From the NCBI GenBank assembly GCA_963674545.2, contig CAXXFB010000001.1, positions 2,484,744-2,548,743 of the forward strand: DNA of 64,000 bases. The letters run 5' to 3'. The position numbers and the translations under genes are program-made. Under the pieces are notes generated by a model. That model saw nothing but the letters and a program-made list of their open reading frames with translations. It was not told the DNA's origin and ran no database searches. Source of the stretch: Christensenellaceae bacterium. Its GTDB lineage: Bacteria; Bacillota; Clostridia; Christensenellales; SZUA-584. The first letter of the stretch is position 1, and every line of letters starts with the position of its first letter. This document shows positions 23,389 through 39,258 of this stretch, one piece after another.

Positions 23389-23398
23389 TGGCGGAGAG
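23389..23398. repeat. Copy of the tRNA-Ser 3' end (TGGCGGAGAG), candidate left att core of the mobilisable island
   Basis: Identical 10-mer to 39169-39178, and 11 of 12 positions if extended. It lies in an intergenic region at the expected element edge. Confidence 0.5.
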
Positions 23399-23481
23399 AG
23401 AAGCCACCGAATCGATGCACTCAAAATGAAAATAGTAGAATATAAGTAGTTCAGCTAAAACTATTTTGAGGAGTATTGATT

Positions 23482-23802: not shown

Positions 23803-23816
23803 TCTGTAAAGCTGAT

Positions 23817-23848
23817 AAGCAGCCTGCGAACTAATTTTCAGGCTGCTT
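23817..23848 (+). terminator. Terminator-like hairpin after the tnpV-like gene
   Basis: AAGCAGCCTG-12 nt-CAGGCTGCTT. The downstream T-run is weak. Confidence 0.45.
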
Positions 23849-23862
23849 ATTCTATCACGGTT

Positions 23863-23985
23863 ATGATGTGAGAAGAAATTACCTATGTTATTGTGATGTG
23901 AGTAAAAAATGAACGATTTTACCTATGAGCAATTTTTACCTATGAAAAATAAACATGGGTAAAAAATGCAGAATTTCTACCCATG
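23863..23985. repeat. Cluster of short repeats (TTTTACCYATG x5 and TGATGTGAG x2) upstream of the Fic/R-M operon
   Basis: Motif copies end at 23887, 23927, 23944 and 23985, with an inverted copy at 23954-23967. CATGGGTA/TACCCATG forms an 8-bp inverted repeat. Confidence 0.7.
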
Positions 23986-24047
23986 TCCTCTTGCAAAGTG
24001 TAAATAATTACTATATAATGTTTTCATATTGATTTGGAGTGTTCTTT

Positions 24048-25127: not shown

Positions 25128-25174
25128 AGATTAACTAATATTATAGGCATATTAGCAACCCAAGGGGTAAATAC

Positions 25175-27715
25175 ATGAAAAAAGAGGCAAAGGCAAGGCT
25201 CAAGATTAATAATTTACTCAGAGAATCAGGATGGCGTTTTTTTGACGAGGGGAATAAACCTGCAAATGTTGCTGTTGAACTAAATGTAAAAATGACAACA
25301 ACTCAAGTAAATGAATACGGCGAAGACTTTGAAAAAACTACTAACGGTTTTATTGATTTTCTATTACTTGATGAAAATGGGAAACCTTATATTGTGTTGG
25401 AAGCTAAATCCGAGGATAAAAATCCATTGGTTGGCAAAGAGCAAGCAAGAAAATATGCAAAAAGCTTATATGTAAAATACGTTATCTTATCCAACGGAAA
25501 TATTCATTACTTTTGGGATATTGAAAAAGGCAATCCGCAAATCGTTGCAGGTTTTCCAAGTTATGAATCATTAAGAGATAGTAAGACATTCTCGGCAGAC
25601 CCGTATGCGCTATATAAAGAAGATATTAAAGATGATTATATAGCAGTTACACAAATTCCGAGATATGCAGATGATCCAAGATATCAAGACGAAACACAGA
25701 GGTCAGAATATATTGATGATACAGGGATTCGGTTCCTGAGAAAGTATCAAATAAACGCTATAAAAGCTTTACAAAAAGCTGCTAAGAAGGGCAATAAACG
25801 ATCTCTCTTCGAAATGGCAACAGGAACAGGGAAAACGCTCACCTCTGCAGCTATCATAAAATTATTTTTAAGAACTGGATGTGCTAATCGAGTTTTATTC
25901 CTTGTAGACAGACTAGAATTAGAAAACCAGGCTCTTAAGAATTTCGTCAGTTATCTTAAGAATGATTATCGCACTGTCATATACAAAAGGAATCCTGAAG
26001 ATTGGCGAAAAGCTGAAATTGTTGTTTCGACTGTCCAAACCCTACTTTCAAACAACAGATATAAAAGGATATTCAGACCTACCGACTTCGATTTAATAAT
26101 ATCGGATGAAGCGCACAGGTCAATAAACGGTAACAGCAGAGCCGTGTTTGAATATTTTCTAGGATATAAATTAGGATTAACTGCAACCCCCAAAAATTAT
26201 ATTAAAAATGTCGATGTCGAAAATATTCAGACATATGATCCAAGAGCGTGGGAACGCAGGCAGTTGCTTGATACATATAAAACATTTGGTTGTGAGAGCG
26301 GAGAGCCGACATTCAGCTATAGTCTTATAGACGGAGCAAATGATCCTTATGGTCCATATCTAATAAATCCTATAACTGTGGATGCGAGAACAGAAATAAC
26401 GACACAACTATTATCGGATAAGGGATATGCTATCGTTAATGGTGGCGACGAAGATGAAGAAGATCAGGAAGAGTTATATTTTGCCAGGCATTTTGAAAGA
26501 CGATTTTTCTCGGAGGAGACCAACAGGATTTTTTGTAAAACGATAATGGAAAATGCTTTGCATGATCCTGTTTCCGGAGAGATCGGTAAAACCATTGTTT
26601 TTGCAGTAAGCCGAAAGCATGTAGCTAAAATAACTCAGATACTCAACGAATATGCTGAACATATATATCCCGGGAAGTACAATTCCGATTTTGCGATGCA
26701 AATAACTTCTGATATATCAAATGTTCAAGAGTATACTGTAAACTTCCAAAACAACAATTTGAGTGGATGGACAAAGTTCATTGAGAATTATAAAAGTTCA
26801 AAAACAAGGGTTTGTGTTACTGTCGGTATGATGACAACAGGATATGACTGCCAGGATTTGTTGAATGTTGTTCTAATGCGCCCGATTTTTTCGCCGACCG
26901 ATTTTGTGCAGATTAAGGGAAGGGGTACGAGGATGTTTACATTTGAGCATTCTCAAAAAATGAATGGTATATCAGAAAAGGATTCCTTACCTAAGAATAA
27001 TTTCAAGTTGTTTGACTTCTTCGGGAACTGTGAGTATTTTGAAGAGAAATTCAATTATGACGAGGTTATTAAACTACCGAGAAAATCATCGTCAGTGGGA
27101 ATTGCCGGAGAACCGCAAACAGTTACCATAGGATATGGATTTGAGAATTTACTTCCAGATCCTCTTAAAACGATTCAAGAAACGCAAATTGGTAGCGAAG
27201 GCATGAAAATCGATCGCAAGCTGTATGAGAAATTTGAGGAGAAGATGCAGCAAGACGATTATGTCAAACAGCAATATCAGCAGGATAACATCAAGGAGGT
27301 TATGCGGTATCTGCAAGATAATGTGTTTGATAAGCCAAAAGATTATTTTAATTTGGAAAAGCTTCGCCGATCTATTAACGTTGACAGGCGTGTAAGCCTG
27401 CGTGAAATACTGGATAAGATATTTGGGAGCGTTCCATATTTCAAATCTAGGCGTGAAGTAATCGACGATGAGTTTGAAGGTTATTGTCTTACTCATGATA
27501 TAAATACCGAAAAATATTATGATATGAAGAATTTTTTCGAAGCCTATCTTACAAGTAAAGATATCAATCGTATCATAGAAGATAAAAAATATCAGAATCT
27601 ATCGACAAACCCGCGTTTTACATTTAACGAGCTTAGATCGCTGGGCAAGACCAATATGCTTTCAATAGTAGATTATATAAAGGATAATGTTAACACCAAC
27701 CAATTTTTATACTAG
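25175..27715 (+). CDS. hsdR: Type I restriction enzyme R subunit (nuclease + SF2 helicase)
   Basis: N-terminal PD-(D/E)XK 'FIDFLLLD...VLEAKSE', helicase motif I 'MATGTGKTLT' and motif II 'SDEAHRS'. Confidence 0.85.
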   Translation: MKKEAKARLKINNLLRESGWRFFDEGNKPANVAVELNVKMTTTQVNEYGEDFEKTTNGFIDFLLLDENGKPYIVLEAKSEDKNPLVGKEQARKYAKSLYVKYVILSNGNIHYFWDIEKGNPQIVAGFPSYESLRDSKTFSADPYALYKEDIKDDYIAVTQIPRYADDPRYQDETQRSEYIDDTGIRFLRKYQINAIKALQKAAKKGNKRSLFEMATGTGKTLTSAAIIKLFLRTGCANRVLFLVDRLELENQALKNFVSYLKNDYRTVIYKRNPEDWRKAEIVVSTVQTLLSNNRYKRIFRPTDFDLIISDEAHRSINGNSRAVFEYFLGYKLGLTATPKNYIKNVDVENIQTYDPRAWERRQLLDTYKTFGCESGEPTFSYSLIDGANDPYGPYLINPITVDARTEITTQLLSDKGYAIVNGGDEDEEDQEELYFARHFERRFFSEETNRIFCKTIMENALHDPVSGEIGKTIVFAVSRKHVAKITQILNEYAEHIYPGKYNSDFAMQITSDISNVQEYTVNFQNNNLSGWTKFIENYKSSKTRVCVTVGMMTTGYDCQDLLNVVLMRPIFSPTDFVQIKGRGTRMFTFEHSQKMNGISEKDSLPKNNFKLFDFFGNCEYFEEKFNYDEVIKLPRKSSSVGIAGEPQTVTIGYGFENLLPDPLKTIQETQIGSEGMKIDRKLYEKFEEKMQQDDYVKQQYQQDNIKEVMRYLQDNVFDKPKDYFNLEKLRRSINVDRRVSLREILDKIFGSVPYFKSRREVIDDEFEGYCLTHDINTEKYYDMKNFFEAYLTSKDINRIIEDKKYQNLSTNPRFTFNELRSLGKTNMLSIVDYIKDNVNTNQFLY

Positions 27716-27723
27716 GAGCTAAA

Positions 27724-30189
27724 ATGCTGAATATTGATATGAAAAGAAAGATCAACACATTAAGAGATATACTTGTAGGCAGAATACCCGACCCGAAAAC
27801 GCAGGTGGAACAGATTACCCTTGCCATGATTTTTAAGTTTATGGACGATATTGATACGGAATTCACCGGAGAATGGGGCGGTGATAGAACCTTTTTTGTA
27901 AAAACCAATAAAATGGATTACTCGAAATACGCTTGGAGCAATATCATGTCACCTCAGGTAAGCGGTGAAGAACGTTCAAATCTCTATCGTGAAGGCATAG
28001 AAAATATGGCAATGAATCCTCATATCCCGCAGCTTTTCAGGGATATTTTCAGGAATGCCTATCTGCCATTTCGTGATCCTGAAACCATCAATATGTTCTT
28101 AAAGGAAATAGATGATTTAAAATATGACAACAGCGAAGATTTGGGGAACGCCTTTGAGATGCTCCTGTCTATTATGGGATCTCAGGGAGATGCAGGACAA
28201 TTCAGGACTCCGAGGCACATTATAGATATGATAGTTGAAATCGTTGACCCCGCTAAAACCGACAGTATACTTGATCCAGCATGCGGTACTGCAGGATTTT
28301 TAATTTCTGCATATAAACATATCCTTAACCGAAATAAAGATAAAAACGGCAATTCCACTTTAGCGCCAGATGAAAGGAATGTGCTTACAACCAACATCAC
28401 TGGCTACGATATCTCCCCCGACATGGTGCGTTTATCTAATGTCAACTTGTATCTTCACCACTTCCCTGAACCTCATATTCATATTTATGATACGCTTACG
28501 AGTGAAGCAAGATGGGATGATACATATGACGTTATTCTGGCAAATCCGCCGTTCATGACACCGAAAGGTGGAATCAATCCTCATAACCGTTTTAGAGTAA
28601 ATGCAAGGCGCAGTGAGGTTTTATTTGTTGACTATATCGCTGAGCATCTAAACCCGAACGGTAAAGCAGGAATCATTGTGCCAGAAGGTATAATTTTTCA
28701 GACATCTAACGCATATAAAGAGCTTAGAAAGATGCTGATAGAGGATAATTACTTGTATGCTGTCATTTCATTGCCGGCAGGTGTTTTCAATCCATATTCA
28801 GGTGTCAAAACAAGTATACTTCTTTTTGACCGCACAATAGCAAAACAAACAGACAATATCCTATTTGTGAAAATAGACAACGACGGCTTCGACCTCGGAG
28901 CGCAAAGAAGAAAATTAAAGTTAAGTGAAATTCCTCGAACAATTGAAGTAATACAGAAATATAAGAAGGCTATTATATCAGGTGAAACAATTCAATCAGA
29001 AGAATTTCAAAATGATTATTCAACATTAGCTTCAAAAAAAGAAATAGTTGATAAAGATTGTGTTCTTGTAGGGGAACGATATAGAAAGACAAGTCATATT
29101 CATAATCACAATTGGGATATGGTTGAACTTGTCGAAGTGCTTAAATATGAACAGCCAACTAATTATTTAGTTGAATCAGTAGAATATAAGGATGAGTATC
29201 CTATTCCCGTACTTACAGCAGGTAAAAGTTTTATTTTAGGATATACGAACGAAATAGAAGGTATATATTCTTCTGGATTACCTGTAATAATATTTGATGA
29301 TTTTACAACTGCCACACAACTTGTAGATTTTAAATTCAAAGTTAAATCAACAGCTATGAAGATATTAAGTGCTAACGAGGGAAAAGCAGATATTAAATAT
29401 CTTTACTATACTATGCAAAACATTTCGTTTGATAGCAGTACTCATAAGAGGTATTGGATATCGCAATATTCAAAAATAAAAATCCCCCTTCCCCCTTTAT
29501 CCTTTCAACAGGAGATTGTTGAAGAGATAGAAAGTTATAAGAAAATTATAGACGGCGCAAGACAGGTGGTAGAGAACTATAAACCTATGATAAAGATTGA
29601 CCCCGAGTGGGAGATGGTCGAGCTGGGAGAGGTTTGTGAGTTTAATCCGAAAAAATCTGAAATTCGAGACCTTAGTGGTGATACAGAAGTTTCCTTTGTG
29701 CCTATGGTGGTAGTAAACGAAAATGAAATGTTTTTTATGCCAACTGAAACACGAAAACTGAAGGAAGTATATTCGGGATATACGTATTTTGCAGAGGGTG
29801 ATGTTTTACTTGCAAAAGTTACACCTTGTTTTGAAAATGGGAAATCAGGTATTGCTAGAAATTTGAATAATAATATTGGGTTTGGTTCAAGTGAATTTTA
29901 TATTTATAGAGCAAGCAATAAAGTTCTGCCAGAATGGATTTATATATTTATTTCAAGCAATAATTTTAAAAAAGAGGGGGAAAAGCATCTTACTGGAACT
30001 GGTGGATTGAGGCGAGTTGATAAAAGTTTTGCATCTTCTTACAAAATACCTATTCCGACAATAGATAAGCAAAAAGAAGCTATTGATAAAATATATGAAG
30101 AGCAAAAAATCATTGAATCAAACAAGCAACTTATAGGTATTTTTGAGCAAAAAATAAAAGACAAGATTTCCGAGGTTTGGGGGGAGTAG
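27724..30189 (+). CDS. Fused type I methyltransferase-specificity protein (HsdM-HsdS in one polypeptide)
   Basis: AdoMet motif 'LDPACGTAGFL' and catalytic 'NPPF'. The C-terminal ~370 aa hold two target-recognition-domain-like halves, each followed by a conserved helix ('PLPPLSFQQEIVEEIE', 'PIPTIDKQKEAIDKI'). No separate hsdS is nearby. Confidence 0.75.
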   Translation: MLNIDMKRKINTLRDILVGRIPDPKTQVEQITLAMIFKFMDDIDTEFTGEWGGDRTFFVKTNKMDYSKYAWSNIMSPQVSGEERSNLYREGIENMAMNPHIPQLFRDIFRNAYLPFRDPETINMFLKEIDDLKYDNSEDLGNAFEMLLSIMGSQGDAGQFRTPRHIIDMIVEIVDPAKTDSILDPACGTAGFLISAYKHILNRNKDKNGNSTLAPDERNVLTTNITGYDISPDMVRLSNVNLYLHHFPEPHIHIYDTLTSEARWDDTYDVILANPPFMTPKGGINPHNRFRVNARRSEVLFVDYIAEHLNPNGKAGIIVPEGIIFQTSNAYKELRKMLIEDNYLYAVISLPAGVFNPYSGVKTSILLFDRTIAKQTDNILFVKIDNDGFDLGAQRRKLKLSEIPRTIEVIQKYKKAIISGETIQSEEFQNDYSTLASKKEIVDKDCVLVGERYRKTSHIHNHNWDMVELVEVLKYEQPTNYLVESVEYKDEYPIPVLTAGKSFILGYTNEIEGIYSSGLPVIIFDDFTTATQLVDFKFKVKSTAMKILSANEGKADIKYLYYTMQNISFDSSTHKRYWISQYSKIKIPLPPLSFQQEIVEEIESYKKIIDGARQVVENYKPMIKIDPEWEMVELGEVCEFNPKKSEIRDLSGDTEVSFVPMVVVNENEMFFMPTETRKLKEVYSGYTYFAEGDVLLAKVTPCFENGKSGIARNLNNNIGFGSSEFYIYRASNKVLPEWIYIFISSNNFKKEGEKHLTGTGGLRRVDKSFASSYKIPIPTIDKQKEAIDKIYEEQKIIESNKQLIGIFEQKIKDKISEVWGE

Positions 30190-30191
30190 GC

Positions 30192-31145
30192 ATGGAAGAA
30201 TACATTGATAAATTACGAAGTTTTCTACCTATAAACTGTGATTACAATCCAGATGATGAATCGGATGATACTGAATATCGAGAATATATTCGGTATCTTC
30301 GGGACGCTTTTGTTGAAAATATTAGCAACGGAAAGTATCAATTCGCACTCCTAGCGTTTCATATGATGTTCATGTCCTTTATTTACAGGCAGTTCTGGTG
30401 CCTAAAAGAACATGATTATGAGAAAGTCAGAAGATTATGCGAAGCCAATGCACGTTTCGGTAACGTTGCAAAGACTTTTGATATTTCTGAAATCCCAGAA
30501 AAAGATGTCATTGATAATACAATGAATGTATTAAGATTCCATGTGAATAGAAGATCTGATGTTAAGAATTTTGTTGATACCAGGGATAAATGTGCACATG
30601 CTAGTGGATATATTCAGTACAATGCAGATAAAGTAAAAACTCATTTTGACAATGTTCTTGAATATGTTGAACAAATTCATAATAAATCAAAGGAAAGTGT
30701 TTTTAATTCTTTTTTAAAAGTTTTGCATGAATACTGGGATTCTGATAGCTATAGTAGTTACTTATCTGTCGAACAGGCTACTAGAATAATTAAAACTATG
30801 GGGTTATCTCCATCAGACATTTTATATATCCAATCTATTGATATTGATATAGTTCTAAATGGGAGAAATCAAGGTACTTATTTAATTTCATACTATATAA
30901 TCCAAATTGTGTTAAAATCATATATTGTTGATAATTACTATCAGGCATCTGATGAATATGATTGTACAGACGAAATTGATCAGTTTAAAAAACACCTCCT
31001 AACCTTAGAATTTAAGGATTATGCAGATATTGAAATTGAACTTGAAGATGAAGTGCTGGCAATTAATGAATTTTATGCATATACACTAGTTGATGATTTC
31101 ATGGAAGAAATCAATTTATTAAGACGTGAAAAAGAGGCTGTCTAG
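30192..31145 (+). CDS. Hypothetical protein (318 aa) co-transcribed with the type I R-M genes
   Basis: The ATG at 30192 lies 2 nt after the hsdMS stop and is preceded by GGGGAG. No recognisable catalytic motif was seen, apart from 'RDKCAHASG', which faintly resembles the DUF4145-type R..N.AH signature. Confidence 0.55.
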   Translation: MEEYIDKLRSFLPINCDYNPDDESDDTEYREYIRYLRDAFVENISNGKYQFALLAFHMMFMSFIYRQFWCLKEHDYEKVRRLCEANARFGNVAKTFDISEIPEKDVIDNTMNVLRFHVNRRSDVKNFVDTRDKCAHASGYIQYNADKVKTHFDNVLEYVEQIHNKSKESVFNSFLKVLHEYWDSDSYSSYLSVEQATRIIKTMGLSPSDILYIQSIDIDIVLNGRNQGTYLISYYIIQIVLKSYIVDNYYQASDEYDCTDEIDQFKKHLLTLEFKDYADIEIELEDEVLAINEFYAYTLVDDFMEEINLLRREKEAV

Positions 31146-31244
31146 ATACTCATTAGGAATCTTGATGGGGGGTACTGGTTAAGTAATAGTATTATTGGAA
31201 TGTGATTATACCGATTTAATAAGATAATGTAGCGAGGAATAAAT

Positions 31245-31871
31245 ATGAGTAAATTGTTTAAGTGGAATATGTTTGTAACATCATTTTTGCCACTTTGGGT
31301 ATCGATTATTATAATTTCTATTTGGACTATTTTTGGTAATGTTTCAAATACTCTTGATTCTAACAACACTGTATTTGTATGTATTTTTAACAATATAACA
31401 GAATTAGTAATGATTTTTGTCATTACAATACTTGTAATTTCTAGTATGGTAGGTATTAACAAATTCATAAAAGAACATAAAGAAGCTGAAGTAGCGCCTA
31501 AAGGTAAAATAATGAGGGCTCGGAAAGCAAATAAACTAACTTCAGAATTCTTGCTTGCCTACATCTTGCCGATGATAGCTTTTGATTTCAGTGATCTTAA
31601 ATTTATTGTTCTGTTTGTAATATACTTTTTTACACTAGCTTTTCTATGTATTAGAAATAACAATGTTTATACGAATATTTTCTTGGAATTTAGAGGGCAT
31701 AAAATTTATGATTGTGATATTGAATGTATGATAACAGATAAACCCAAGGTATATGAAGATTGTGTAATTATTAGTTCACAAGATCTTTCTAGCAAGGTAG
31801 GAACCGAAATAAAATATTGGGATTTCGAGAAATACATTTATTTAGATTTACATAAAAAGGAGAAGAAATGA
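31245..31871 (+). CDS. Four-TM membrane protein, KwaA-like by architecture
   Basis: GAGGAA RBS. The hydrophobic segments are 'FVTSFLPLWVSIIIISIWTIF', 'LVMIFVITILVISSMVGI', 'FLLAYILPMIAFDF' and 'FIVLFVIYFFTLAFLCI', followed by a ~70-aa soluble tail. Confidence 0.5.
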   Translation: MSKLFKWNMFVTSFLPLWVSIIIISIWTIFGNVSNTLDSNNTVFVCIFNNITELVMIFVITILVISSMVGINKFIKEHKEAEVAPKGKIMRARKANKLTSEFLLAYILPMIAFDFSDLKFIVLFVIYFFTLAFLCIRNNNVYTNIFLEFRGHKIYDCDIECMITDKPKVYEDCVIISSQDLSSKVGTEIKYWDFEKYIYLDLHKKEKK

Positions 31872-32803
31872 ACAAGCAAGAAATTAGTTGCGTATTTGAT
31901 TCCATAGAGAGCAATTCCTATGACTGGGCATTATACTTTTTTAGTATTGATAGAAGAAACTCTATGCCTTTCAGTTTTCACAAGGTTAGATTCAAAAATC
32001 TTGAGTATTTACCTGAGTATGCAAAAAACCTTGTATCGATAACAAAGCAATATCAGGTAGATCAAGCAACAGCAGTCCAAGCGTATGACGGGTTTAATAC
32101 GAAAGTTTCTTGCGATACCATTACTACTGAAAGCGATCTATTATCTGAAGAGTGGCAGTTATTTAAAACTGCCATTGAAAACGCATCAGATGAAAAGATC
32201 AGCGGAAAGGTTAAGGGGTATGTATTAATTGGACATCCAGTTGATAACGATGAACTTAAACCTATTATTTTTGTTAAATGCGGGAATCCAATAATTGATT
32301 TAACGAATAAAAAACGAGTAGCATATATAGCTACTGAAAAAGACGAATTGGATTTAATTTCAGATGATATTTATCGATTATATTTGACAGTTGATTTTTT
32401 CCATTATGTTGGCAGCATATATGCGTTTAATCATTCTTTTGAGAAGATCTTTAATGTTGAGGGGACACTTAAAAGGGTTAAAGCTCATGCTATAGAAGAG
32501 ATTATTTTAGTTGATGCATTTAATGACACAGAAGCATTTAAAGGTTTTTCGAAGAGTTATACACAAGCCAGGACTTTTATTACTCTGAATAAAGAGAGAC
32601 TGGAAAGAATATCTAAAGCAGATCAGCGTACAAACATAGCAGGAATGCTGCAGATTGAAATAGATAGTCAGAATAAATTTATTGTAGCTGATGCTGAAAA
32701 AGCATCGTTATTGATTAGATATCTTTGTTATAAAATATTTAGAGATGATGAAAGCAAAGACGTTTTAGAAGGAGAGGCTGTTAGTAAAATTAATTTTACA
32801 TAA
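31868..32803 (+). CDS. Soluble 311-aa partner protein, KwaB (DUF4868)-like by size and context
   Basis: Its start overlaps the upstream stop (ATGA at 31868-31871) and follows AGGAGAAG. Homology is not verifiable by eye. Confidence 0.45.
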   Translation: MNKQEISCVFDSIESNSYDWALYFFSIDRRNSMPFSFHKVRFKNLEYLPEYAKNLVSITKQYQVDQATAVQAYDGFNTKVSCDTITTESDLLSEEWQLFKTAIENASDEKISGKVKGYVLIGHPVDNDELKPIIFVKCGNPIIDLTNKKRVAYIATEKDELDLISDDIYRLYLTVDFFHYVGSIYAFNHSFEKIFNVEGTLKRVKAHAIEEIILVDAFNDTEAFKGFSKSYTQARTFITLNKERLERISKADQRTNIAGMLQIEIDSQNKFIVADAEKASLLIRYLCYKIFRDDESKDVLEGEAVSKINFT

Positions 32804-32865
32804 TCTAGAATGATGCACGATAGAGTAAGAATAACTGGGTAAGATATAAGTAGTTGGAGGGGAAA

Positions 32866-33792
32866 ATGGCCATACCAAAATACAATGAATTTATGAAACC
32901 AATATTAAATTTACTAAGCGATACGAAAGAACATCATCGTAAAGAAATGTATCAGGTTTTCACAGCTCAATTTCAGTTAACAAAGGATGAAATGGAAGAG
33001 TGGTTACCGAGTGGAAATCAGCTTGTTTATAAAAATCGTATCGGGTGGGCATTGACATATTTGAAAAAGGCAGGACTTGTATTATCGCCTACAAGATCGG
33101 TATATAAAATAACTGAAGATGGTTTAAAAGTTATCGCAGAGAATCCAAATGAAATTGATAGTAGTTATTTAAGTAAATTTGAATCTTTTAACGGGTTTAT
33201 TAATAAATCGAATGAGAATGCCGAGAAAGATAATAAAGTATCACTTAATAAATTGGAAGAATCTCCGCAAGAGCAGCTTGATATAGCATATAAAACAATT
33301 TCTAATACGCTCGAAGACGATTTGTTACAAGAAATCATAAGGCAGTCGCCTGATTTTTTTGAGAAATTAGTTGTAGATTTACTTGTTGCTATGGGATATG
33401 GCGGCAGCAAAATAGAGAATAGTAGAGTTCTCGGCAAGTCAGGGGACGAAGGCATTGATGGAATAATTAAAGAGGATAAATTGGGTTTTGACACAATCTA
33501 CGTTCAAGCAAAACAATGGGATCCAGCAAGAACAGTAGGGAGACCTGAATTGCAAAAATTTGTGGGAGCTTTAACAGGTCAAGGAGCAACGAAAGGTGCT
33601 TTCCTTACTACGGCTAGATTCTCTAATGAAGCTGAAGAATATGTTAAAAAACAACATGCTTGTAAAATAGCATTGATTGATGGGAAAAGCTTAACTTCTT
33701 TGATGGTTGAAAATAATCTTGGAGTATCTATAGAAAATACATATCATATTAAGCGTATTGATACAGATTATTTCGATTCAGCTGAAATCTAA
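32866..33792 (+). CDS. mrr: Mrr-family type IV restriction endonuclease
   Basis: The ATG at 32866 follows GGAGGGG. N-terminal winged helix 'IPKYNEFMKPILN' and catalytic core 'GDEGIDGII...IYVQAKQW'. Confidence 0.85.
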   Translation: MAIPKYNEFMKPILNLLSDTKEHHRKEMYQVFTAQFQLTKDEMEEWLPSGNQLVYKNRIGWALTYLKKAGLVLSPTRSVYKITEDGLKVIAENPNEIDSSYLSKFESFNGFINKSNENAEKDNKVSLNKLEESPQEQLDIAYKTISNTLEDDLLQEIIRQSPDFFEKLVVDLLVAMGYGGSKIENSRVLGKSGDEGIDGIIKEDKLGFDTIYVQAKQWDPARTVGRPELQKFVGALTGQGATKGAFLTTARFSNEAEEYVKKQHACKIALIDGKSLTSLMVENNLGVSIENTYHIKRIDTDYFDSAEI

Positions 33793-33814
33793 TGAGTTAT
33801 GTCTGAATCGAAGT

Positions 33815-34327
33815 TTATGTTGATATTTTTTTAGTAGCAAAGTCAATCTGTTTAACAGTGTCATTAACAATATCGGCAAACTCCTTTTGACAAGAACATC
33901 CGGCTTTGAATATATCTTTGGGATTGGCATTGGCAATAATTTTTGAATGATAAGAGGTCATTGAAAGAAGATATAGAACTTCTCTTTCAATGCTTTTTTC
34001 ATGTGCGATTTTCAACACTTCACATAGATTACTGAGTAAATCTTGGCTAGCCGAAGCCGGTAAATGATAGATTATATCTTCCAGATTATCAACTTGATCT
34101 TTAGTATATCGGTGATCCTGTTTTGATTTCAAATTTGAGTTTCCGACCAAATAATCAACTGACACATTAAAATAATTTGCAGCTTTAACGGCAAAATGAA
34201 TGTCGGGAGTTCTCCGGTTACTCTCATAAAAATTGATTGTCATTCGAGCAACTCCAAGTTCATCGGCAAGTTCCTGCTGTGTCAGATTCTTTTCGTCACG
34301 CAATTCTTTAAGTATCCTGTTAAACAT
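33815..34327 (-). CDS. XRE-family HTH transcriptional regulator
   Basis: Start at the Met of 'MFNRILKELRDEKNLTQQELADELGVARMTINFYE'. The upstream part of the tracked ORF is unlikely to be coding. Confidence 0.8.
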   Translation of the reverse strand: MFNRILKELRDEKNLTQQELADELGVARMTINFYESNRRTPDIHFAVKAANYFNVSVDYLVGNSNLKSKQDHRYTKDQVDNLEDIIYHLPASASQDLLSNLCEVLKIAHEKSIEREVLYLLSMTSYHSKIIANANPKDIFKAGCSCQKEFADIVNDTVKQIDFATKKIST

Positions 34328-34414
34328 ATCTCTGCTCCAATCGCTTGATATATGATTATTATAGCACGGCACCGATGTGATTACAATAAAAATCAAATTA
34401 CTATAAACATACTA

Positions 34415-34443
34415 TTGCAATCATTATTATTTTGTGATACTAT
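34415..34443 (+). promoter_or_regulatory. Candidate promoter of the mobilisation operon, overlapped by inverted repeats
   Basis: -35 TTGCAA (34415-34420), a 17-nt spacer, and -10 TACTAT (34438-34443). Inverted repeats are TTGTGAT (34432-34438) with ATCACAA (34476-34482), and TATATG (34441-34446) with CATATA (34457-34462). Confidence 0.35.
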
Positions 34444-34545
34444 ATGTAAGCAATCGCATATAAATTACGATAACAATCACAATGGGAGAGGAATATGAGA
34501 TATAGGAAACGAAAAAGACGATGCCAAAACTTCATATCATTAACA

Positions 34546-34585
34546 AAGAGCTGACGCCGATACAGGTGGTCAGCTCTTTTAGTTT
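34546..34585 (+). terminator. Terminator/attenuator hairpin in the leader of the mobilisation operon
   Basis: AAGAGCTGAC-13 nt-GTCAGCTCTT followed by TTAGTTTT. Confidence 0.5.
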
Positions 34586-34654
34586 TGAATGTATTTATGG
34601 TAGTCGGACAGGGATTCGAAAATAACATGTAATGATTGAAATTGGAGGTGAAAT

Positions 34655-34915
34655 ATGAAAGGTAAAGTGATTAGTATCAGACTAAATCTTGAAAAGCTTA
34701 CGGATAAAAAAGCTGAAGAGATATTATCCAGCTTACCATCCAGACGCAAGAGTGAATACATCAGAAACGCTATTATTGCATACAACGAAGTCGAGCGTTT
34801 AATTGAATTAATGAAGCAGGCATTGATAGAAGCAATGGAAGAACGAGAAACAAATCAGGCTGAAAAAAAGAACGAAGAAAACGGAGGATTCAATGATTAT
34901 CTCAAATCTTTATAA
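34655..34915 (+). CDS. Ribbon-helix-helix-like small DNA-binding protein
   Basis: GGAGGTG RBS. 'KVISIRLNLEKLTDKKAEEIL...RKSEYIRNAIIAY' fits a CopG/RHH pattern. Confidence 0.5.
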   Translation: MKGKVISIRLNLEKLTDKKAEEILSSLPSRRKSEYIRNAIIAYNEVERLIELMKQALIEAMEERETNQAEKKNEENGGFNDYLKSL

Positions 34916-35349
34916 AAAAAATCAAACAGTAGTACATATCGTAATACATGAAAAGCTATTGCCACCCATAGTGTACACCATAGCGACGCCAAGGCATGTC
35001 ATATACTGGAGAATCCGTATTACACATTGTAAAGCAATTAAAATTCATGCCACCAACAGTGTGTGCCAAACAAATAAACTCTATAAAAACGTAACTAACA
35101 ATGTAAAAATTAGCTTAATCGTTACGGTTATTAAAGCAGAAACCGAATCGGATAAATTGAGCGATATTTTTTTCCAGCCTGTAAGAAATCTGATGAAAGC
35201 AAAAGGGGAACTGAAGCTGAGAAGCTGGAGATACTGTCTTTGCAAGCATGGCACATGTGCCCACAAATGCCCGCTTGACAGGGAGTTCCCACTCCCTATA
35301 ACCCACTTAGATGGCGGTAAACCGCTTAGAATTCGCAAAGGAGAATTGT

Positions 35350-35658
35350 ATGAGAACAAGGAGCAACATGATAAAAGTCATGCTGAACGATAAAGAGCTG
35401 GAGCATCTCAATAAACAGGTTGAAACCAGCGGACTGAACAAATCGGCTCTGCTCAGAAAGCTCATTAGCGGATTAGCAATCAATCCTGCTCCAGTAGAGG
35501 AATATCATAAAATCTGCGGTTTGTTATCGAATGTTACAAATAACATAAACCAAATCGCAAGGCAGGCAAATACAACGGGATATATCAGTGAAGAAAAGCT
35601 GGACGCTGTAATCCTTCTTATTCGTAAATGCTGGCAGCAGATGCGGGAGCTTAGATAA
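35350..35658 (+). CDS. mobC: MobC-family relaxosome accessory protein
   Basis: The ATG at 35350 follows AAAGGAGAA. 'IKVMLNDKELEHLNKQVETSGLNKSALLRKLI...NINQIARQAN' is typical MobC. Confidence 0.75.
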   Translation: MRTRSNMIKVMLNDKELEHLNKQVETSGLNKSALLRKLISGLAINPAPVEEYHKICGLLSNVTNNINQIARQANTTGYISEEKLDAVILLIRKCWQQMRELR

Positions 35659-37154
35659 TGGCAATTACTAAAATCATCGTTATACGAGAACGATTGGACA
35701 AGCGTGTAAGCTATGTGCTGAATGAGGATAAGACGGGGCTTGGCAATGTGCTGGAGTATGCAATGGACAAAGATAAAATTCAAGGAGAGCAGAAATTGTA
35801 TGAGAGTGCTGTTAACTGTGATAAAGAAACAGCTTTTCAGGATATGATGCAAACCAAAAAGCATTTTGGTAAAACGGACAAAGTGCAAGGTTATCATATC
35901 ATTCAATCCTTTAAACCGGACGAGGTAACGCCGGAGTTAGCTCATCAGATCGGCGTCGAGTTTGCGCAGAAATGTTTTGGTAAATATGAAGCCGTTGTCG
36001 GAACGCACCTGGACAAAAATCATATTCATAATCATGTGGTAGCAAATTCCGTGTCTTTTATAGACGGAAGGAAATATCGCAACAATTTTAAAGACTACTA
36101 TGGGGATATTCGAGGCATATCCGATGCGCTATGCAAGGAATATGGTTTGTCCATCATAGAAGAAAATGAAGAAAAGAAATCGGTTAGCTATGTAGAATGG
36201 CTTGCCAGAAACAAAGGCAAAACGTCATGGCAGACTATTATTAGAAACGATATAGATGACTGTATAAAACAAGCCTTTAATTTTGGCAACTTCCTTATGC
36301 TGATGGAACATAAAGGCTATGAAATCAAACAAGGCAAATATTTATCACTCAAACCTATGGGAAGAGAACATTTCTCCAGAGGATATAAGCTGGGAAATGA
36401 ATATTCGTTTGTTAATATCAAAAACAGAATTGAAGGCAAAAATCTGACATTGGAGTTCAAAGATGTAGAGTACCATATGCAGAAAAAACATGAGTTTAAC
36501 CCATATCCAAAAGTGAAGCCGGGCAGCTTCGAAGCGCTGTGTTTGCATTATATGTATCTGCTTGGGCAGGTCAAGAAGAATCAGGTTCCTGATAATACAG
36601 CCAATGTTTTTAAGGAAGATTTAATTAGATTTGAGAAGATGACTAAAACATTTAATTTTGTACATGACAGAAATATTGAAACAATAGAGCAAGTGCTGAA
36701 TTATAAAGATAGATGCTATGAGAAAATCAACGGGTTACAAGCGACAAAGATAGAATTACATGCCGAGAAAGACAAACATAAACAGGCGTTCGATTTGCTT
36801 AGAAAAGTCAAGATGCTTGAGAAACCACATAGGTTGTATTTTGATGGCTATTTCGAGATGCAGGATGAACATGATGAATATCTGAAAGCAAGTAACCATC
36901 TCAAAGAAATGGGATATGGGACTGCGAAAGAGATTGAATGTTTAGAGAAAGTAAAGAGCAGTATTGAGGGTCGGTTGTCGTCAAACGATGAAGAAATACG
37001 AAGTTTTAGAAAAGAAATACGTTTATGCAATACCGCTCTTGAATTGAATAATCATATTGAAAAGAAAACTCTGGAGCTTGAAGAACAAGATAACAGCGAT
37101 GTGCAACCGAGACTGACCGTCAAAGAGATGGCGAAAAATTTATTGGAAAGGTAA
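35658..37154 (+). CDS. Relaxase / mobilisation nuclease (MobA/VirD2 family)
   Basis: Its start overlaps the mobC stop by 1 nt. The histidine triad 'HLDKNHIHNHVV' is present. Confidence 0.85.
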   Translation: MAITKIIVIRERLDKRVSYVLNEDKTGLGNVLEYAMDKDKIQGEQKLYESAVNCDKETAFQDMMQTKKHFGKTDKVQGYHIIQSFKPDEVTPELAHQIGVEFAQKCFGKYEAVVGTHLDKNHIHNHVVANSVSFIDGRKYRNNFKDYYGDIRGISDALCKEYGLSIIEENEEKKSVSYVEWLARNKGKTSWQTIIRNDIDDCIKQAFNFGNFLMLMEHKGYEIKQGKYLSLKPMGREHFSRGYKLGNEYSFVNIKNRIEGKNLTLEFKDVEYHMQKKHEFNPYPKVKPGSFEALCLHYMYLLGQVKKNQVPDNTANVFKEDLIRFEKMTKTFNFVHDRNIETIEQVLNYKDRCYEKINGLQATKIELHAEKDKHKQAFDLLRKVKMLEKPHRLYFDGYFEMQDEHDEYLKASNHLKEMGYGTAKEIECLEKVKSSIEGRLSSNDEEIRSFRKEIRLCNTALELNNHIEKKTLELEEQDNSDVQPRLTVKEMAKNLLER

Positions 37155-37161
37155 AAGAAAA

Positions 37162-37344
37162 TTGGATAAAAACTGCAATATAAAAATCAAGCAAGAAAAC
37201 ACATATGGAATCGGCAAGGATTTTATGATATCACAAATTAAAATAGGAAAAACAACATTCATTGTAGCCAGCTATTTCGAGAAAGAAAAATCGTTTATCG
37301 ATGCTATGGAGCAGGTTATAGAACACAAAATTAAAGCATCATAA
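37162..37344 (+). CDS. TnpW-like small protein
   Basis: 'KIGKTTFIVASYFEKEKSFIDAMEQVI' resembles the 'IG.TTY.V..HFS' pattern of the TnpW family. The start is uncertain (TTG at 37162 or ATG at 37225). Confidence 0.35.
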   Translation: MDKNCNIKIKQENTYGIGKDFMISQIKIGKTTFIVASYFEKEKSFIDAMEQVIEHKIKAS

Positions 37345-37429
37345 TTGGACTTGGCACGGATTGCGGAGTATACTAAGCATAGGCTGAACTACTTCGTAAT
37401 CTGCGCTGTTTTCATTAGAAAGGAACAAT

Positions 37430-39118
37430 ATGCAGAAGAATTACAAAGTAGGATTATATTTAAGACTTTCACGTGATGATAACAATTCTGAAAGTGAAAG
37501 CATGAGCATTTCAAATCAAAGGAGTATGCTCACGGACTATGTTAAAGAAAGGGGCTGGGAAGTAGAAGAGATTTATATCGACGATGGTATTTCGGGCGTT
37601 ACCTTTGACCGACCGGCATTTAACCGTTTGATAAAGGATATTGAGAAAGAACGTATCAATATGGTTATTACAAAAGACTTGTCTAGACTTGGGCGCAACT
37701 ATTTAAAGGTTGGCGAATACACGGATTATTTCTTTCCAAAGCATAAGGTCAGATATATTGCTGTAAATGATAATTATGACAACGATAAGGAAGATGATTT
37801 CGTAGCATTTCGCAATATATTCAATGAGCATTATGCCAAGGATACTTCAAAGAAGATCAAATCGGTTAAGAAGTCGCAGATGAAACAGGGATTGTTTATC
37901 GGCAGCCAGCCTGCAATGGGATACATGCGTGACCCAAATGATAAGCACAAGCTGATTGTTGACGAAGAAGCTGCTGATATCATCAGACGAATGTTTCACA
38001 GATATTCTATAGGTGATAGCGCAAGGCATATTGCGGATACGTTTAATCAAGAAGGAGTTCCGACACCGAGAGAATACTTCTTCAATCGAATCGATAAGCC
38101 GAATCCCTATACAGGCGATGCTATAACCTGGGGCAGCTCAACCATCATTCGCATGTTGGGCAATCAAGTGTATATTGGTCACATGTGCCAAGGTAAACGC
38201 CAGAAGAAATCGTTCAAGATGAAACGCAGGGATGTTATACCGCAGGATGATTGGATAGTTGTTGAGAACACACACGAGCCGATAATCGATGAGATTACCT
38301 GGAATCGTGTGCAGACTATTCTCAAACGCAACAAAAGGAGCGCTAAGCCTAGATTACGGGATGATAAGACAGTTGCTCTGTTCTCTGGTAAAGTGCGCTG
38401 TGCGGACTGTCAGGCGGTGATGACGTATACTTATTCAAAGAATACTGTGTATAAGCCATACTACAAGTATCGGTGCAGTACATACAGCAATCAGGGCAAA
38501 ACAGCCTGCAGCTATCATGCAATTTTAGATGATGAACTGAAAGCCATCGTACTCGCAGAGATTCATAAGTTTTCGAACATAGCATCAATCTATGAAGATG
38601 AATTGCTAAAAAAGCTGATTGATATTAACAGTAACATAAAGTTGAAAAACAACAGCTTTCTTGAAAAGCAGATTCGCAGGACAAACAGAGAGCTTCAGGG
38701 AATTGCGCCGAAGATTGATGTATTGATTGACCAGATGGCAAACGGTAATATTTCAGAGCAGATGTTTAAGAAGCTAATGAATCAGTATGAGCAGAAGCAG
38801 AATGATTTGTCTGAAAAGCTGGCGGAGCAAAAGGCTGAATTGTCTAGAATCAAAGACGATATAGGCAATATACAGCACTTAGTTGATTGCTTCAAAAATC
38901 GAGTATACATTAAAGACCTTGACCGAGAAACGATTGTAGAGCTAATTGACTTTATCGAAGTGTTCAAGAAAGAAAAGGTAGGAACCGAATATTTTCAGAG
39001 GGTTGATATCCATTTCAACTTTATTGGTCAGATATCAACTGAACATTTTCAAGCGTTGAAGGATTACATTCAACAGCAAGAACAAAAGGACCAAAATAAA
39101 ATGACACAGGTTGTATGA
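37430..39118 (+). CDS. Large serine recombinase (element integrase)
   Basis: 'YLRLSRDDN' Ser motif, 'TKDLSRLGRN', and Cys cluster 'CADCQAVMTY...YRCSTYSNQGKTACSYH'. It ends 50 nt from the tRNA 3' end. Confidence 0.9.
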   Translation: MQKNYKVGLYLRLSRDDNNSESESMSISNQRSMLTDYVKERGWEVEEIYIDDGISGVTFDRPAFNRLIKDIEKERINMVITKDLSRLGRNYLKVGEYTDYFFPKHKVRYIAVNDNYDNDKEDDFVAFRNIFNEHYAKDTSKKIKSVKKSQMKQGLFIGSQPAMGYMRDPNDKHKLIVDEEAADIIRRMFHRYSIGDSARHIADTFNQEGVPTPREYFFNRIDKPNPYTGDAITWGSSTIIRMLGNQVYIGHMCQGKRQKKSFKMKRRDVIPQDDWIVVENTHEPIIDEITWNRVQTILKRNKRSAKPRLRDDKTVALFSGKVRCADCQAVMTYTYSKNTVYKPYYKYRCSTYSNQGKTACSYHAILDDELKAIVLAEIHKFSNIASIYEDELLKKLIDINSNIKLKNNSFLEKQIRRTNRELQGIAPKIDVLIDQMANGNISEQMFKKLMNQYEQKQNDLSEKLAEQKAELSRIKDDIGNIQHLVDCFKNRVYIKDLDRETIVELIDFIEVFKKEKVGTEYFQRVDIHFNFIGQISTEHFQALKDYIQQQEQKDQNKMTQVV

Positions 39119-39128
39119 CCTGAAAATC

Positions 39129-39162
39129 AGAATAAAAGAAAAACGACACATTGAGTGCCGTC
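39129..39162 (-). terminator. Terminator of tRNA-Ser
   Basis: On the minus-strand RNA the stem is ACGGCAC/GTGTCGT with one G.U pair, followed by TTTTTCTTTTATT. Confidence 0.45.
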
Positions 39163-39168
39163 TGTAGG

Positions 39169-39258
39169 TGGCGGAGAGGGTGGGATTCGAACCCACGGAT
39201 GCTTGCGCATCACCGGTTTTCAAGACCGGCACTTTCAACCAGACTCGGACACCTCTCC
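39169..39258 (-). tRNA. tRNA-Ser (anticodon UGA), CCA encoded
   Basis: The reverse complement gives GGAGAGG acceptor, anticodon stem CCGGT/ACCGG with loop CTTGAAA, a long variable arm GATGC..GCATC, T-arm GTGGG-TTCGAAT-CCCAC, and the 3' end CCTCTCC-G-CCA. Confidence 0.92.

What the first reader, a model, noticed from the sequence alone, without database searches (positions are those of the whole stretch)
31245..32803. Membrane plus soluble two-gene module with Kiwa-like architecture inside the defence cargo
A 208-aa protein has four clear hydrophobic helices and a ~70-aa soluble tail. Its stop overlaps the start (ATGA at 31868-31871) of a 311-aa soluble protein with no catalytic motif I can recognise. 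The pair has its own 99-nt AT-rich upstream gap. It sits between a type I R-M operon and an Mrr type IV nuclease on a mobilisable element, which is classic defence-island context. The sizes and topology match KwaA (about 200 aa, 4 TM) plus KwaB (about 310 aa, DUF4868). I cannot confirm homology by eye. If it is not Kiwa, it is an unassigned membrane-coupled candidate defence pair.
Basis: partly seen in the sequence, partly recalled or inferred. Interest (0 to 1): 0.75.

Follow-up and report, generated by a model that had tools for sequence, protein, structure and literature searches.

The report
Divergent Kiwa anti-phage gene pair

Summary
ORFs 31245..31871 (208 aa) and 31868..32803 (311 aa) overlap in ATGA and each has a good ribosome-binding site.

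Both proteins are Kiwa components:
- ORF1 matches 11 PADLOC KwaA models (best E = 4e-20). Its family profile hits solved E. coli KwaA (E = 1.5e-10). Its AlphaFold model matches only KwaA chains in the PDB (TM 0.6-0.77).
- ORF2 passes Pfam's KwaB/DUF4868 threshold (35.4 against 26.3 bits). Its confident model (pLDDT 85) matches only solved KwaB chains over the full length (E = 1e-10, 14-16% identity).

In 28 of 28 genome loci with a full-length KwaB relative, a KwaA gene lies directly upstream. Of 20 sampled flanking ORFs, 18 match restriction or defence models.

The pair belongs to a Clostridia-centred clade that is far from the E. coli prototype:
- NCBIfam's KwaA cutoff is missed and no NCBIfam KwaB model matches.
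- PADLOC KwaB hits are marginal.
- Only 2 of 6 E. coli DNA-contact residues are conserved.

Mechanism is inferred by homology: KwaA senses membrane disturbance at phage entry, and KwaB binds incoming DNA and blocks replication.

Verdict: new member of a known kind, low interest.

The parts
31245..31871 (+). kwaA: 208-aa membrane protein with 4 TM helices and a cytoplasmic beta-barrel
   Evidence: ORF. PADLOC KwaA models, best E = 3.8e-20. NCBIfam KwaA 69.7 bits, below its cutoff of 100. Family profile hits PDB KwaA 9o0i_G at E = 1.5e-10. The AlphaFold model matches only KwaA chains, TM 0.6-0.77.
31251..31655 (+). kwaA transmembrane region (aa 3-137: TM1-TM4). It includes the basic cytoplasmic loop ICL1 (aa 73-100), which carries beta-strand 86-94.
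   Evidence: AlphaFold secondary structure. Hydropathy and positive-inside analysis: ICL1 has 9 K/R, the TM1-TM2 loop has none.
31656..31868 (+). kwaA cytoplasmic C-terminal tail (aa 138-208), with four beta-strands. With the ICL1 strand it forms the KwaB-docking beta-barrel.
   Evidence: Strands 153-163, 166-177, 188-194 and 198-201 in the model. The profile alignment to solved KwaA covers this region. The architecture is described in PMC11785009.
31868..31871 (+). ATGA stop/start overlap between kwaA and kwaB (translational coupling)
   Evidence: Sequence. A tight junction of -13 to +20 nt is found in 27 of 28 related loci, 15 of them overlapping.
31868..32803 (+). kwaB: 311-aa soluble protein with an N-terminal alpha/beta domain and a C-terminal DUF4868 DNA-binding domain
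   Evidence: Pfam PF16162 35.4 bits against a gathering score of 26.3. PADLOC KwaB E = 2.4e-5. AlphaFold pLDDT 85.2. The six significant Foldseek hits are all solved KwaB chains, E = 1.4e-10 to 7e-9, full length. hhalign through a bridging profile gives 99.9% probability.
32264..32725 (+). Region of kwaB matched by the Pfam KwaB/DUF4868 model (aa 133-286). It contains the conserved basic residues R170 and R235.
32297..32368 (+). Low-confidence flexible loop of KwaB (aa 144-167), positionally equivalent to the KwaA-contacting 'DE loop' of E. coli KwaB (residues 134-174)
   Evidence: pLDDT below 50 for residues 144-167. hhalign register. DE loop described in PMC11785009.
31234..31238 (+). Ribosome-binding site (GAGGA) of kwaA
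   Evidence: Sequence.
31858..31862 (+). Ribosome-binding site (AGGAG) of kwaB, inside the 3' end of kwaA
   Evidence: Sequence.
31146..31244 (+). 99-nt intergenic region upstream of kwaA. It may hold a promoter, but this is not demonstrated.
   Evidence: The gap is confirmed. No consensus sigma-70 site was found in it. It differs at only 3 of 100 positions from the copy in L035.

Best explanation
This is a two-gene Kiwa anti-phage defence system from a divergent, Clostridia-centred clade. It is cargo on an integrative mobilisable defence island.

Shown here:
- Both proteins are homologous to KwaA and KwaB in sequence and in full-length fold.
- The pair is a conserved, tightly coupled kwaA-kwaB unit.
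- The pair sits among other defence genes.

Inferred from the E. coli work (PMC11785009):
- KwaA, with 4 TM helices and N-in topology, assembles as a tetramer in the cytoplasmic membrane.
- Its cytoplasmic beta-barrel, formed by ICL1 and the C-terminal tail, docks KwaB dimers.
- Disturbance of the membrane where a phage attaches and injects DNA (or during conjugation) is sensed by KwaA and activates KwaB.
- KwaB binds the incoming DNA non-specifically through its DUF4868 domain, without cutting it. This stalls phage replication and hence late transcription.

In the window protein, R170 and R235 are the most likely conserved DNA contacts. The loop at 144-167 is the likely contact with KwaA TM2.
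For: KwaA:
- 11 PADLOC KwaA models match, best 70 bits, E = 3.8e-20, nearly end to end.
- NCBIfam KwaA matches at E = 2.6e-19 over the whole model, positions 1-182.
- The family profile hits solved KwaA at E = 1.5e-10.
- The AlphaFold model (pLDDT 78, pTM 0.72) has 4 TM helices, an ICL1 strand and 4 C-terminal strands.
- Its only 7 significant PDB matches are KwaA chains, TM 0.6-0.77. The next hit has E = 1.6.
- Positive-inside topology places ICL1 and the tail in the cytoplasm.

KwaB:
- Pfam PF16162 is above its gathering score.
- All listed homologues but one (P0092) carry PF16162, and relatives are named 'Kiwa anti-phage protein KwaB-like domain-containing protein' or 'DUF4868 domain-containing protein' by NCBI.
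- The AlphaFold model has pLDDT 85 and pTM 0.79.
- Its only 6 significant PDB matches are KwaB chains (9mtn, 9mrx_D, 9nyu) over 331-344 alignment columns. The next hit has E = 0.3.
- There is a transitive sequence chain. Clade members match Emticicia KwaB, which PGAP annotates as KwaB, at about 5e-7. Emticicia KwaB matches solved E. coli KwaB at 1.4e-30.
- hhalign through a bridging profile gives 99.9% probability.

System level:
- kwaA lies immediately upstream of kwaB in 28 of 28 genome loci.
- The junction is -13 to +20 nt in 27 of 28 loci.
- 10 of 10 upstream and 8 of 10 downstream flanking ORFs match R-M or defence models.
- The window proteins keep all 50 (KwaA) and 43 (KwaB) invariant columns of their clade.
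- A near-identical copy exists on a related element in another assembly.
- A Gram-positive Kiwa, from S. thermophilus, gives 4-5 log protection against lactococcal phages (PMC11514479).
Against: - No function was measured for this locus or for any member of its clade.
- KwaB is only 14-16% identical to solved KwaB.
- Neither the protein nor two family profiles reach solved KwaB by HMMER.
- PADLOC KwaB models match at most 13 of 39 clade members and only weakly.
- The NCBIfam KwaA equivalog cutoff is not met, and no NCBIfam KwaB model matches.
- In a low-identity alignment, only 2 of the 6 E. coli DNA-contact residues are conserved. The E. coli interface residues P100/N101/Q103 and Y157 are replaced by S107/D108/K110 and E160.
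- The host appears to be a Gram-positive-type Clostridial bacterium, judged from the relatives. The membrane trigger may therefore differ from the one in E. coli.
- The hhalign bridge is partly circular, because the bridge sequences were found with the query profile.
Confidence: 0.87

Rival explanations
1. A Kiwa homologue whose main role is competition between mobile elements. Carried on a mobilisable element, it would chiefly block entry of competing conjugative plasmids or elements, with phage defence secondary or absent.
For: E. coli Kiwa systems reduce plasmid conjugation more than twofold (PMC11785009). The pair sits on an element with MobC, a relaxase and serine recombinases. The cassette was exchanged recently between two diverged elements.
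Against: Characterised Kiwa systems, including a Gram-positive one, protect against phages. The neighbours are classic anti-phage genes (R-M, Mrr, SoFic-like Fic). Nothing here separates the two roles, and they are not mutually exclusive.
Confidence: 0.07
2. A three-gene system in which the upstream 317-aa orphan ORF (30192-31145) works together with KwaA and KwaB.
For: ORF317, kwaA and kwaB form one nearly identical segment (about 30150-32945, 0-1 differences per 100 nt) between two elements whose flanks differ by 5-17 per 100 nt. All three genes are on the same strand.
Against: No ORF317 homologue lies within 6 kb of kwaAB in any of the 28 other genome loci. The ORF317 family (11 clusters) sits directly after HsdR and the HsdM-S fusion, without Kiwa, in L037, L038 and L039. 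Its start abuts the HsdMS stop, whereas a 99-nt gap separates it from kwaA.
Confidence: 0.03
3. An inactive or decaying Kiwa remnant that no longer defends.
For: Defence islands turn over. Five genome loci hold only truncated KwaB C-terminal fragments without KwaA, and one locus has a truncated kwaA.
Against: Both window ORFs are full length, keep every clade-invariant residue, have intact ribosome-binding sites and the coupled junction, and are 98.6% and 99.4% identical to an intact copy elsewhere.
Confidence: 0.03
4. A different system that only shares a KwaA-like membrane subunit, for example the PADLOC candidate PDC-M39.
For: PDC-M39A matches ORF1 at E = 7.4e-6.
Against: Eleven KwaA models score higher, up to 70 bits. 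The partner protein is a full-length structural match to KwaB and passes the Pfam KwaB threshold.
Confidence: 0.01

Closest known systems
Kiwa of E. coli O55:H7 RM12579 (KwaA/KwaB; PDB 9mrg, 9mrr, 9mrx, 9mtn, 9nyu, 9o0i; PMC11785009)
   Same: Gene order kwaA then kwaB, with coupled translation. KwaA is about 200 aa, with 4 TM helices and a cytoplasmic beta-barrel built from ICL1 and the C-terminus. KwaB is about 310 aa, with an N-terminal alpha/beta domain, DUF4868 and a flexible central loop. Both folds match over the full length. Both are carried on mobile elements or defence islands.
   Different: Identity is only 14-20%. KwaB cannot be linked to the solved protein by direct HMMER searches. 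In the mapped alignment 4 of 6 DNA-contact residues and the mapped KwaA-KwaB interface residues differ. The host is a Clostridia-type bacterium rather than an enterobacterium. Interplay with RecBCD and Gam was not assessed.
Kiwa of Streptococcus thermophilus 90730 (PMC11514479)
   Same: A Firmicute host. A two-gene kwaA/kwaB system in a defence island next to R-M and CRISPR loci. It shows experimentally that Kiwa works in a Gram-positive background.
   Different: That system was detected directly by PADLOC, whereas the window's KwaB is marginal for the PADLOC models. Its sequence relationship to the window pair was not measured here.
Clostridial kwaA-kwaB clade (e.g. Clostridium frigidicarnis DSM 12271, L001/L009; Oscillospiraceae, Lachnospiraceae and Ruminococcus MAGs, L002-L029)
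   Same: 35-57% identical full-length orthologues of both proteins, with the same order and junction and with R-M or defence neighbours. This is the clade the window pair belongs to.
   Different: The window copy and its 99% twin in L035 are the only ones found beside the ORF317-containing type I R-M operon and Mrr.

Membership tests
Kiwa (KwaA component) | Sequence match to curated KwaA family models | tested here: met
   11 PADLOC KwaA models match, best E = 3.8e-20 over aa 1-181. All listed homologues carry PF28043, which is named KwaA. The clade profile hits solved KwaA at E = 1.5e-10.
Kiwa (KwaA component) | NCBIfam equivalog NF041622 score above its curated cutoff (100 bits) | tested here: not met
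   69.7 bits, E = 2.6e-19, over the full model. The homology is clear, but the protein lies outside the equivalog's trusted range, which fits relatives being labelled 'hypothetical protein'.
Kiwa (KwaA component) | Four TM helices plus a cytoplasmic beta-barrel formed by ICL1 and the C-terminus | tested here: met
   AlphaFold model elements. Foldseek TM 0.6-0.77 to KwaA chains only. Positive-inside topology. The feature is defined in PMC11785009.
Kiwa (KwaB component) | DUF4868 / KwaB domain (Pfam PF16162) above the gathering score | tested here: met
   35.4 bits against 26.3, aa 133-286. PADLOC KwaB matches only at E = 2.4e-5. No NCBIfam KwaB model matches.
Kiwa (KwaB component) | Full-length KwaB fold (N-terminal Rossmann-like domain plus C-terminal DUF4868) | tested here: met
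   Model pLDDT 85.2. The only significant PDB hits are six KwaB chains, E = 1.4e-10 to 7e-9, TM 0.56-0.62, 331-344 aligned columns.
Kiwa (system) | kwaA and kwaB adjacent on the same strand and conserved as a pair | tested here: met
   28 of 28 genome loci with full-length KwaB have KwaA directly upstream. The junction is -13 to +20 nt in 27 of 28.
Kiwa (system) | Location in defence islands or on mobile elements | tested here: met
   In the window, R-M, Mrr, Fic, relaxase and recombinases surround the pair. 18 of 20 sampled flanking ORFs in other loci hit R-M or defence models. There was no background control.
Kiwa (system) | Conservation of the KwaB DNA-contact residues mutated in E. coli (N134, R142, R167, D169, K187, R233) | tested here: inconclusive
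   R167 maps to R170 (R/K in 39 of 39 clade members) and R233 maps to R235 (R in 38, K in 1), so both are conserved. The other four are not. The alignment is at about 16% identity and runs through a bridging profile.
Kiwa (system) | Conservation of the KwaA-KwaB interface residues (KwaB P100/N101/Q103 and Y157) | tested here: not met
   They map to S107/D108/K110 and E160. These are conserved within the clade but differ from E. coli. Co-evolution of the interface would explain this, and the residues are not family-defining.
Kiwa (system) | KwaA tetramer and KwaB dimer supercomplex | not testable with these tools
   Only monomer prediction was available. This needs AlphaFold-Multimer or AF3, or cryo-EM.
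Kiwa (system) | Protection against phage, requiring both genes | not testable with these tools
   Experimental. Shown for E. coli and four other systems and for S. thermophilus.

The most novel reading that the evidence does not exclude
The Clostridia-centred clade could be a distinct Kiwa subtype. It would have a re-wired KwaA-KwaB interface and a partly different DNA-binding surface, and would be adapted to a single-membrane envelope. It is largely invisible to NCBIfam and marginal for PADLOC, so PADLOC-based censuses would under-count it. It also seems to travel habitually just downstream of R-M systems (10 of 10 sampled loci). That could reflect a functional partnership or a different trigger from the one found in E. 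coli.
Probability: 0.12. Interest if true: 0.45.

Novelty: new member of a known kind. Interest (0 to 1): 0.2.

Why it matters
The result assigns a function to two otherwise unlabelled genes: relatives of ORF1 are called 'hypothetical protein' in public records. It also completes the picture of a compact mobile defence island carrying a SoFic-like Fic protein, a type I R-M system, Kiwa and an Mrr nuclease.

It shows that a sizeable Clostridial branch of Kiwa (334 representative clusters at 50% identity) sits at or below the detection limits of NCBIfam and of the PADLOC KwaB models. Kiwa prevalence in gut and anaerobic Firmicutes is therefore probably underestimated.

It does not reveal a new kind of system or mechanism.

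Tried and rejected
Searches that gave nothing or too little:
- Direct phmmer of KwaB against PDB sequences found nothing.
- The clade profile A1 and the widened profile A3 (63 sequences, including Emticicia KwaB) still did not reach solved KwaB by HMMER. They gave only chance-level hits with E of 0.12 or worse.
- hhalign of A1 against the single E. coli KwaB sequence gave only 8% probability over 61 columns. I replaced it with a bridging profile, which is partly circular.
- The local Pfam copy gave no hit for KwaA. The KwaA model PF28043 appears only in the precomputed annotations.
- The promoter and terminator scan gave chance-level counts, with nothing in the 99-nt gap, so no claim is made about the transcription unit.
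- An exact-sequence look-up of the window's KwaA returned nothing, and the housekeeping-protein cluster carried no names. The host species could not be named. It is inferred to be Clostridia-like from the relatives.
- tblastn of E. coli KwaA against plasmids found no close copy of the solved system (all hits below 60% identity). It did supply the PGAP-annotated Emticicia kwaAB locus, which I used as the bridge.

Ideas considered and rejected: ORF317 as a third Kiwa component; PDC-M39 membership; a decayed remnant. These are covered under the rival explanations.
Full report
**1. Observation**

They are 31245..31871 (208 aa) and 31868..32803 (311 aa). The second ATG overlaps the first TGA as ATGA at 31868-31871. 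Each start has a Shine-Dalgarno motif: GAGGA at 31234-31238 and AGGAG at 31858-31862.

A 99-nt gap (31146-31244) precedes the first gene. Its GC content is 31%, which is not lower than that of the genes themselves (28% and 32%). A consensus scan found no sigma-70-like promoter in the gap and no terminator after the second gene. The number of promoter-like sites in the region was at chance level (27 found, 25.9 expected). The pair's 'own' promoter is therefore unproven.

Hydropathy gives hydrophobic segments at 7-34, 41-76 and 107-139 in ORF1 and none in ORF2.

**2. Identity of ORF1**

- ORF1 matches 11 PADLOC KwaA models. The best is E = 3.8e-20 and covers residues 1-181.
- It matches the NCBIfam KwaA equivalog at E = 2.6e-19 over the entire model. 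The score is 69.7 bits, below the curated cutoff of 100.
- It has 487 homologues, all listed ones annotated with PF28043. That accession is named KwaA.
- Pairwise, it aligns end to end with solved E. coli KwaA, but only marginally (E = 0.05).
- A 36-sequence clade profile (A2) raises this to E = 1.5e-10.
- The AlphaFold2 model has pLDDT 78 and pTM 0.72. It has helices 3-37, 43-79, 100-112 and 118-137, a strand at 86-94 in the TM2-TM3 loop, and four C-terminal strands.
- Its only seven significant PDB matches are KwaA chains of 9mrx, 9mrg and 9mrr (E = 7e-8 to 2e-4, TM 0.57-0.77). The next hit has E = 1.6.
- The TM2-TM3 loop carries 9 K/R and the TM1-TM2 loop none. This puts ICL1 and the tail in the cytoplasm.

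**3. Identity of ORF2**

- ORF2 passes the Pfam gathering threshold for PF16162 'Kiwa protein KwaB-like' (35.4 against 26.3 bits, residues 133-286).
- It hits one PADLOC KwaB model weakly (E = 2.4e-5).
- It has 182 homologues. All listed ones but one (P0092) carry PF16162, and some are named 'DUF4868 domain-containing protein' or 'Kiwa anti-phage protein KwaB-like domain-containing protein' by NCBI.
- Sequence searches do not reach the solved E. coli KwaB. This holds for the single protein, the clade profile A1 and a widened 63-sequence profile A3.
- No NCBIfam KwaB model matches.
- Structure settles the question. The AlphaFold2 model (pLDDT 85.2, pTM 0.79) is confident everywhere except residues 144-167.
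- Its only six significant PDB matches are KwaB chains (9mtn, 9mrx_D, 9nyu). They have E = 1.4e-10 to 7e-9, probability 1.00, TM 0.56-0.62 and 331-344 aligned columns, at 14-16% identity. The next hit, YejK, has E = 0.3.

A transitive sequence chain also exists. Emticicia oligotrophica KwaB is annotated kwaB by PGAP and matches solved KwaB at E = 1.4e-30. In a local database of 401 proteins it matches members of the window's clade at about 5e-7 and intermediate representatives at 2e-9. An hhalign of the clade profile against a bridging profile aligns window 66-298 to E. coli 63-303 with 99.9% probability. That profile contains E. coli KwaB, Emticicia KwaB and ten intermediates. The intermediates were themselves found with the query profile, so this step is partly circular. 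I use it for residue register only.

**4. Residue-level comparison**

The low-confidence loop at 144-167 corresponds to the flexible DE loop of E. coli KwaB (134-174), which touches KwaA TM2.

The paper lists six residues whose combined mutation severely reduces DNA binding. They map as follows.

| E. coli residue | Window residue | State in the clade |
|---|---|---|
| R167 | R170 | R/K in 39 of 39 |
| R233 | R235 | R in 38, K in 1 |
| N134 | C138 | not conserved |
| R142 | T146 | T or K |
| D169 | Y172 | not conserved |
| K187 | S190 | T, K or S |

The E. coli interface loop P100/N101/Q103 maps to S107/D108/K110, and Y157 maps to E160. These are conserved inside the clade but differ from E. 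coli, as expected if the interface co-evolves. The mapping rests on an alignment at about 16% identity and should be treated as provisional.

**5. The pair as a unit, and its context**

A scan of one genome per species found 33 loci that encode relatives.

- In all 28 loci with a full-length KwaB, a KwaA homologue lies directly upstream on the same strand.
- The stop-to-start distance is -13 to +20 nt in 27 of 28 loci, and 15 overlap. The exception has a truncated kwaA.
- The hosts are almost all Clostridia: Oscillospiraceae, Lachnospiraceae, Ruminococcus, Clostridium frigidicarnis and Sedimentibacter.
- Five further loci hold only C-terminal KwaB fragments of 84-174 aa without KwaA. These are decayed copies.
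- I sampled the largest ORF within 2.5 kb on each side. All 10 upstream ORFs match R-M components, and 8 of 10 downstream ORFs match defence models: SoFic, SIR2/pAgo-associated, GajB-like helicase, Mokosh-like, PDC-S02 and PDC-S31. There was no background control, and some PADLOC models are generic.
- In C. frigidicarnis the pair follows a Lamassu-like module.

In the window the pair lies on an island bounded by large serine recombinases (18611-21935 and 37430-39118). In order, the island carries:

- a SoFic-like Fic protein (24039-25127)
- HsdR (25175-27715)
- an HsdM-S fusion (27724-30189)
- a 317-aa orphan ORF
- kwaA and kwaB
- Mrr (mREase_IV, E = 4e-85)
- an HTH regulator on the minus strand
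- MobC and a relaxase

The same 15.8-kb cargo block (window 23389-39197) occurs at 92-93% nucleotide identity in another assembly (L035). There it has different flanks and a tyrosine integrase plus TnpV at its left end. The element is therefore mobile.

**6. What the upstream ORF is**

The 317-aa ORF (30192-31145) has no match in Pfam, PADLOC or NCBIfam. It belongs to a family of only 11 clusters among 5.8 billion proteins.

- In L037 and L038 it directly follows HsdR and an HsdM-S fusion, with no Kiwa nearby. In L039 it follows degraded R and S fragments.
- No homologue lies within 6 kb of the other 28 Kiwa loci.

It is therefore an accessory third gene of that R-M operon and not part of Kiwa.

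**7. Mechanism**

Shown here are homology, fold, topology, operon structure and context. Everything else is inferred from E. coli Kiwa (PMC11785009):

- KwaA tetramers sit in the membrane and bind KwaB dimers through the cytoplasmic beta-barrel.
- Phage-induced membrane disturbance at the attachment site activates the complex.
- KwaB binds incoming DNA through DUF4868 without cleaving it.
- Replication forks stall and late transcription fails.
- Conjugation is also reduced.

Kiwa works in a Gram-positive background. The S. thermophilus 90730 system gives 4-5 log protection against lactococcal phages (PMC11514479). The main uncertainty for this clade is whether the trigger and the DNA-binding surface are the same, given the divergent residues.

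**8. Novelty and verdict**

This is a Kiwa system, so the kind is known, and Firmicute and mobile-element-borne Kiwa systems are already documented.

The only new point is that this copy belongs to a divergent, Clostridia-centred branch. An exhaustive profile search finds 334 representative clusters at 50% identity, 228 of them with E of 1e-10 or better. This branch is below NCBIfam's naming thresholds. It is marginal for the PADLOC KwaB models: at most 13 of 39 members match any one model, and the best E is about 7e-8. It is probably under-counted in defence censuses.

I rate it a new member of a known kind, with low interest (0.2).

Noticed in passing
window 30192-31145 (+); relatives in L035, L037, L038, L039: A 317-aa orphan protein (ORF listing gives a TTG start at 30177; the likely true start is ATG 30192). 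It has no Pfam, PADLOC or NCBIfam hit, and its family has only 11 clusters among 5.8 billion proteins. It always sits as the third gene directly after HsdR and an HsdM-S fusion, so it is a rare accessory gene of this type I R-M operon, of unknown function.
   Followed up: partly
window ~30150-32945, compared with L035: Divergence between the two copies of the island is mosaic. The ORF317-kwaA-kwaB segment is 98.9-99.7% identical at the nucleotide level (pS 0.005-0.04). The flanking Fic, HsdR and Mrr genes have pS 0.25-0.44. This implies recent recombinational exchange of a cassette of about 2.8 kb between diverged elements. A second near-identical patch lies at about 34150-34940.
   Followed up: partly
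window 27724-30189 (+): The type I methyltransferase and specificity subunit are fused into one 821-aa protein. Its target-recognition region (about 29083-30105) is replaced relative to L035, giving 70% aa identity overall against 94% for HsdR. This is a specificity swap.
   Followed up: partly
L002, L005-L008, L010, L015, L017, L022, L023 (upstream of kwaA): In all 10 sampled loci of this Kiwa clade, the largest ORF just upstream of kwaA is an R-M component (type IIG, type I, II or III). This is a recurrent R-M-then-Kiwa arrangement that might be more than generic defence-island clustering. There was no background control.
   Followed up: no
L030-L034; L019: Decayed Kiwa copies. Five loci keep only C-terminal KwaB fragments of 84-174 aa without KwaA, and one of these (L034) is fused to an HTH segment. 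L019 has a truncated kwaA, leaving a 144-nt gap.
   Followed up: partly
protein P0043 (492 aa, one 5.5-kb Logan contig): An in-frame KwaA-KwaB fusion protein. The kwaA stop is lost at the junction and the KwaA N-terminus is shortened. It could be a real fusion or an assembly or sequencing error.
   Followed up: no
window 17316-23389 and 37430-39118; L035 20-1838: The window's island has two adjacent large serine recombinases at its left (18611-21935) and one at its right end. The otherwise homologous element in L035 has a tyrosine integrase plus TnpV on the left. The integration modules have been swapped, or two elements lie in tandem. The boundaries and att sites were not determined.
   Followed up: no
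window 24039-25127 (+): A Fic protein with Fic_N and SoFic-like C-terminal domains opens the cargo block. It is probably a SoFic-type defence gene. A SoFic-matching gene also lies downstream of Kiwa in L007.
   Followed up: no
window 32854-33792 (+): The Mrr start is probably ATG 32867, preceded by GGAGG, rather than the TTG at 32854 listed mechanically. The L035 orthologue has 308 aa.
   Followed up: no
window 39200-64000 compared with 1-39200: GC content rises to 45.5% to the right of the island, against 35% for both the island and the left flank (1-17000). The left flank may therefore not be typical core genome either.
   Followed up: no
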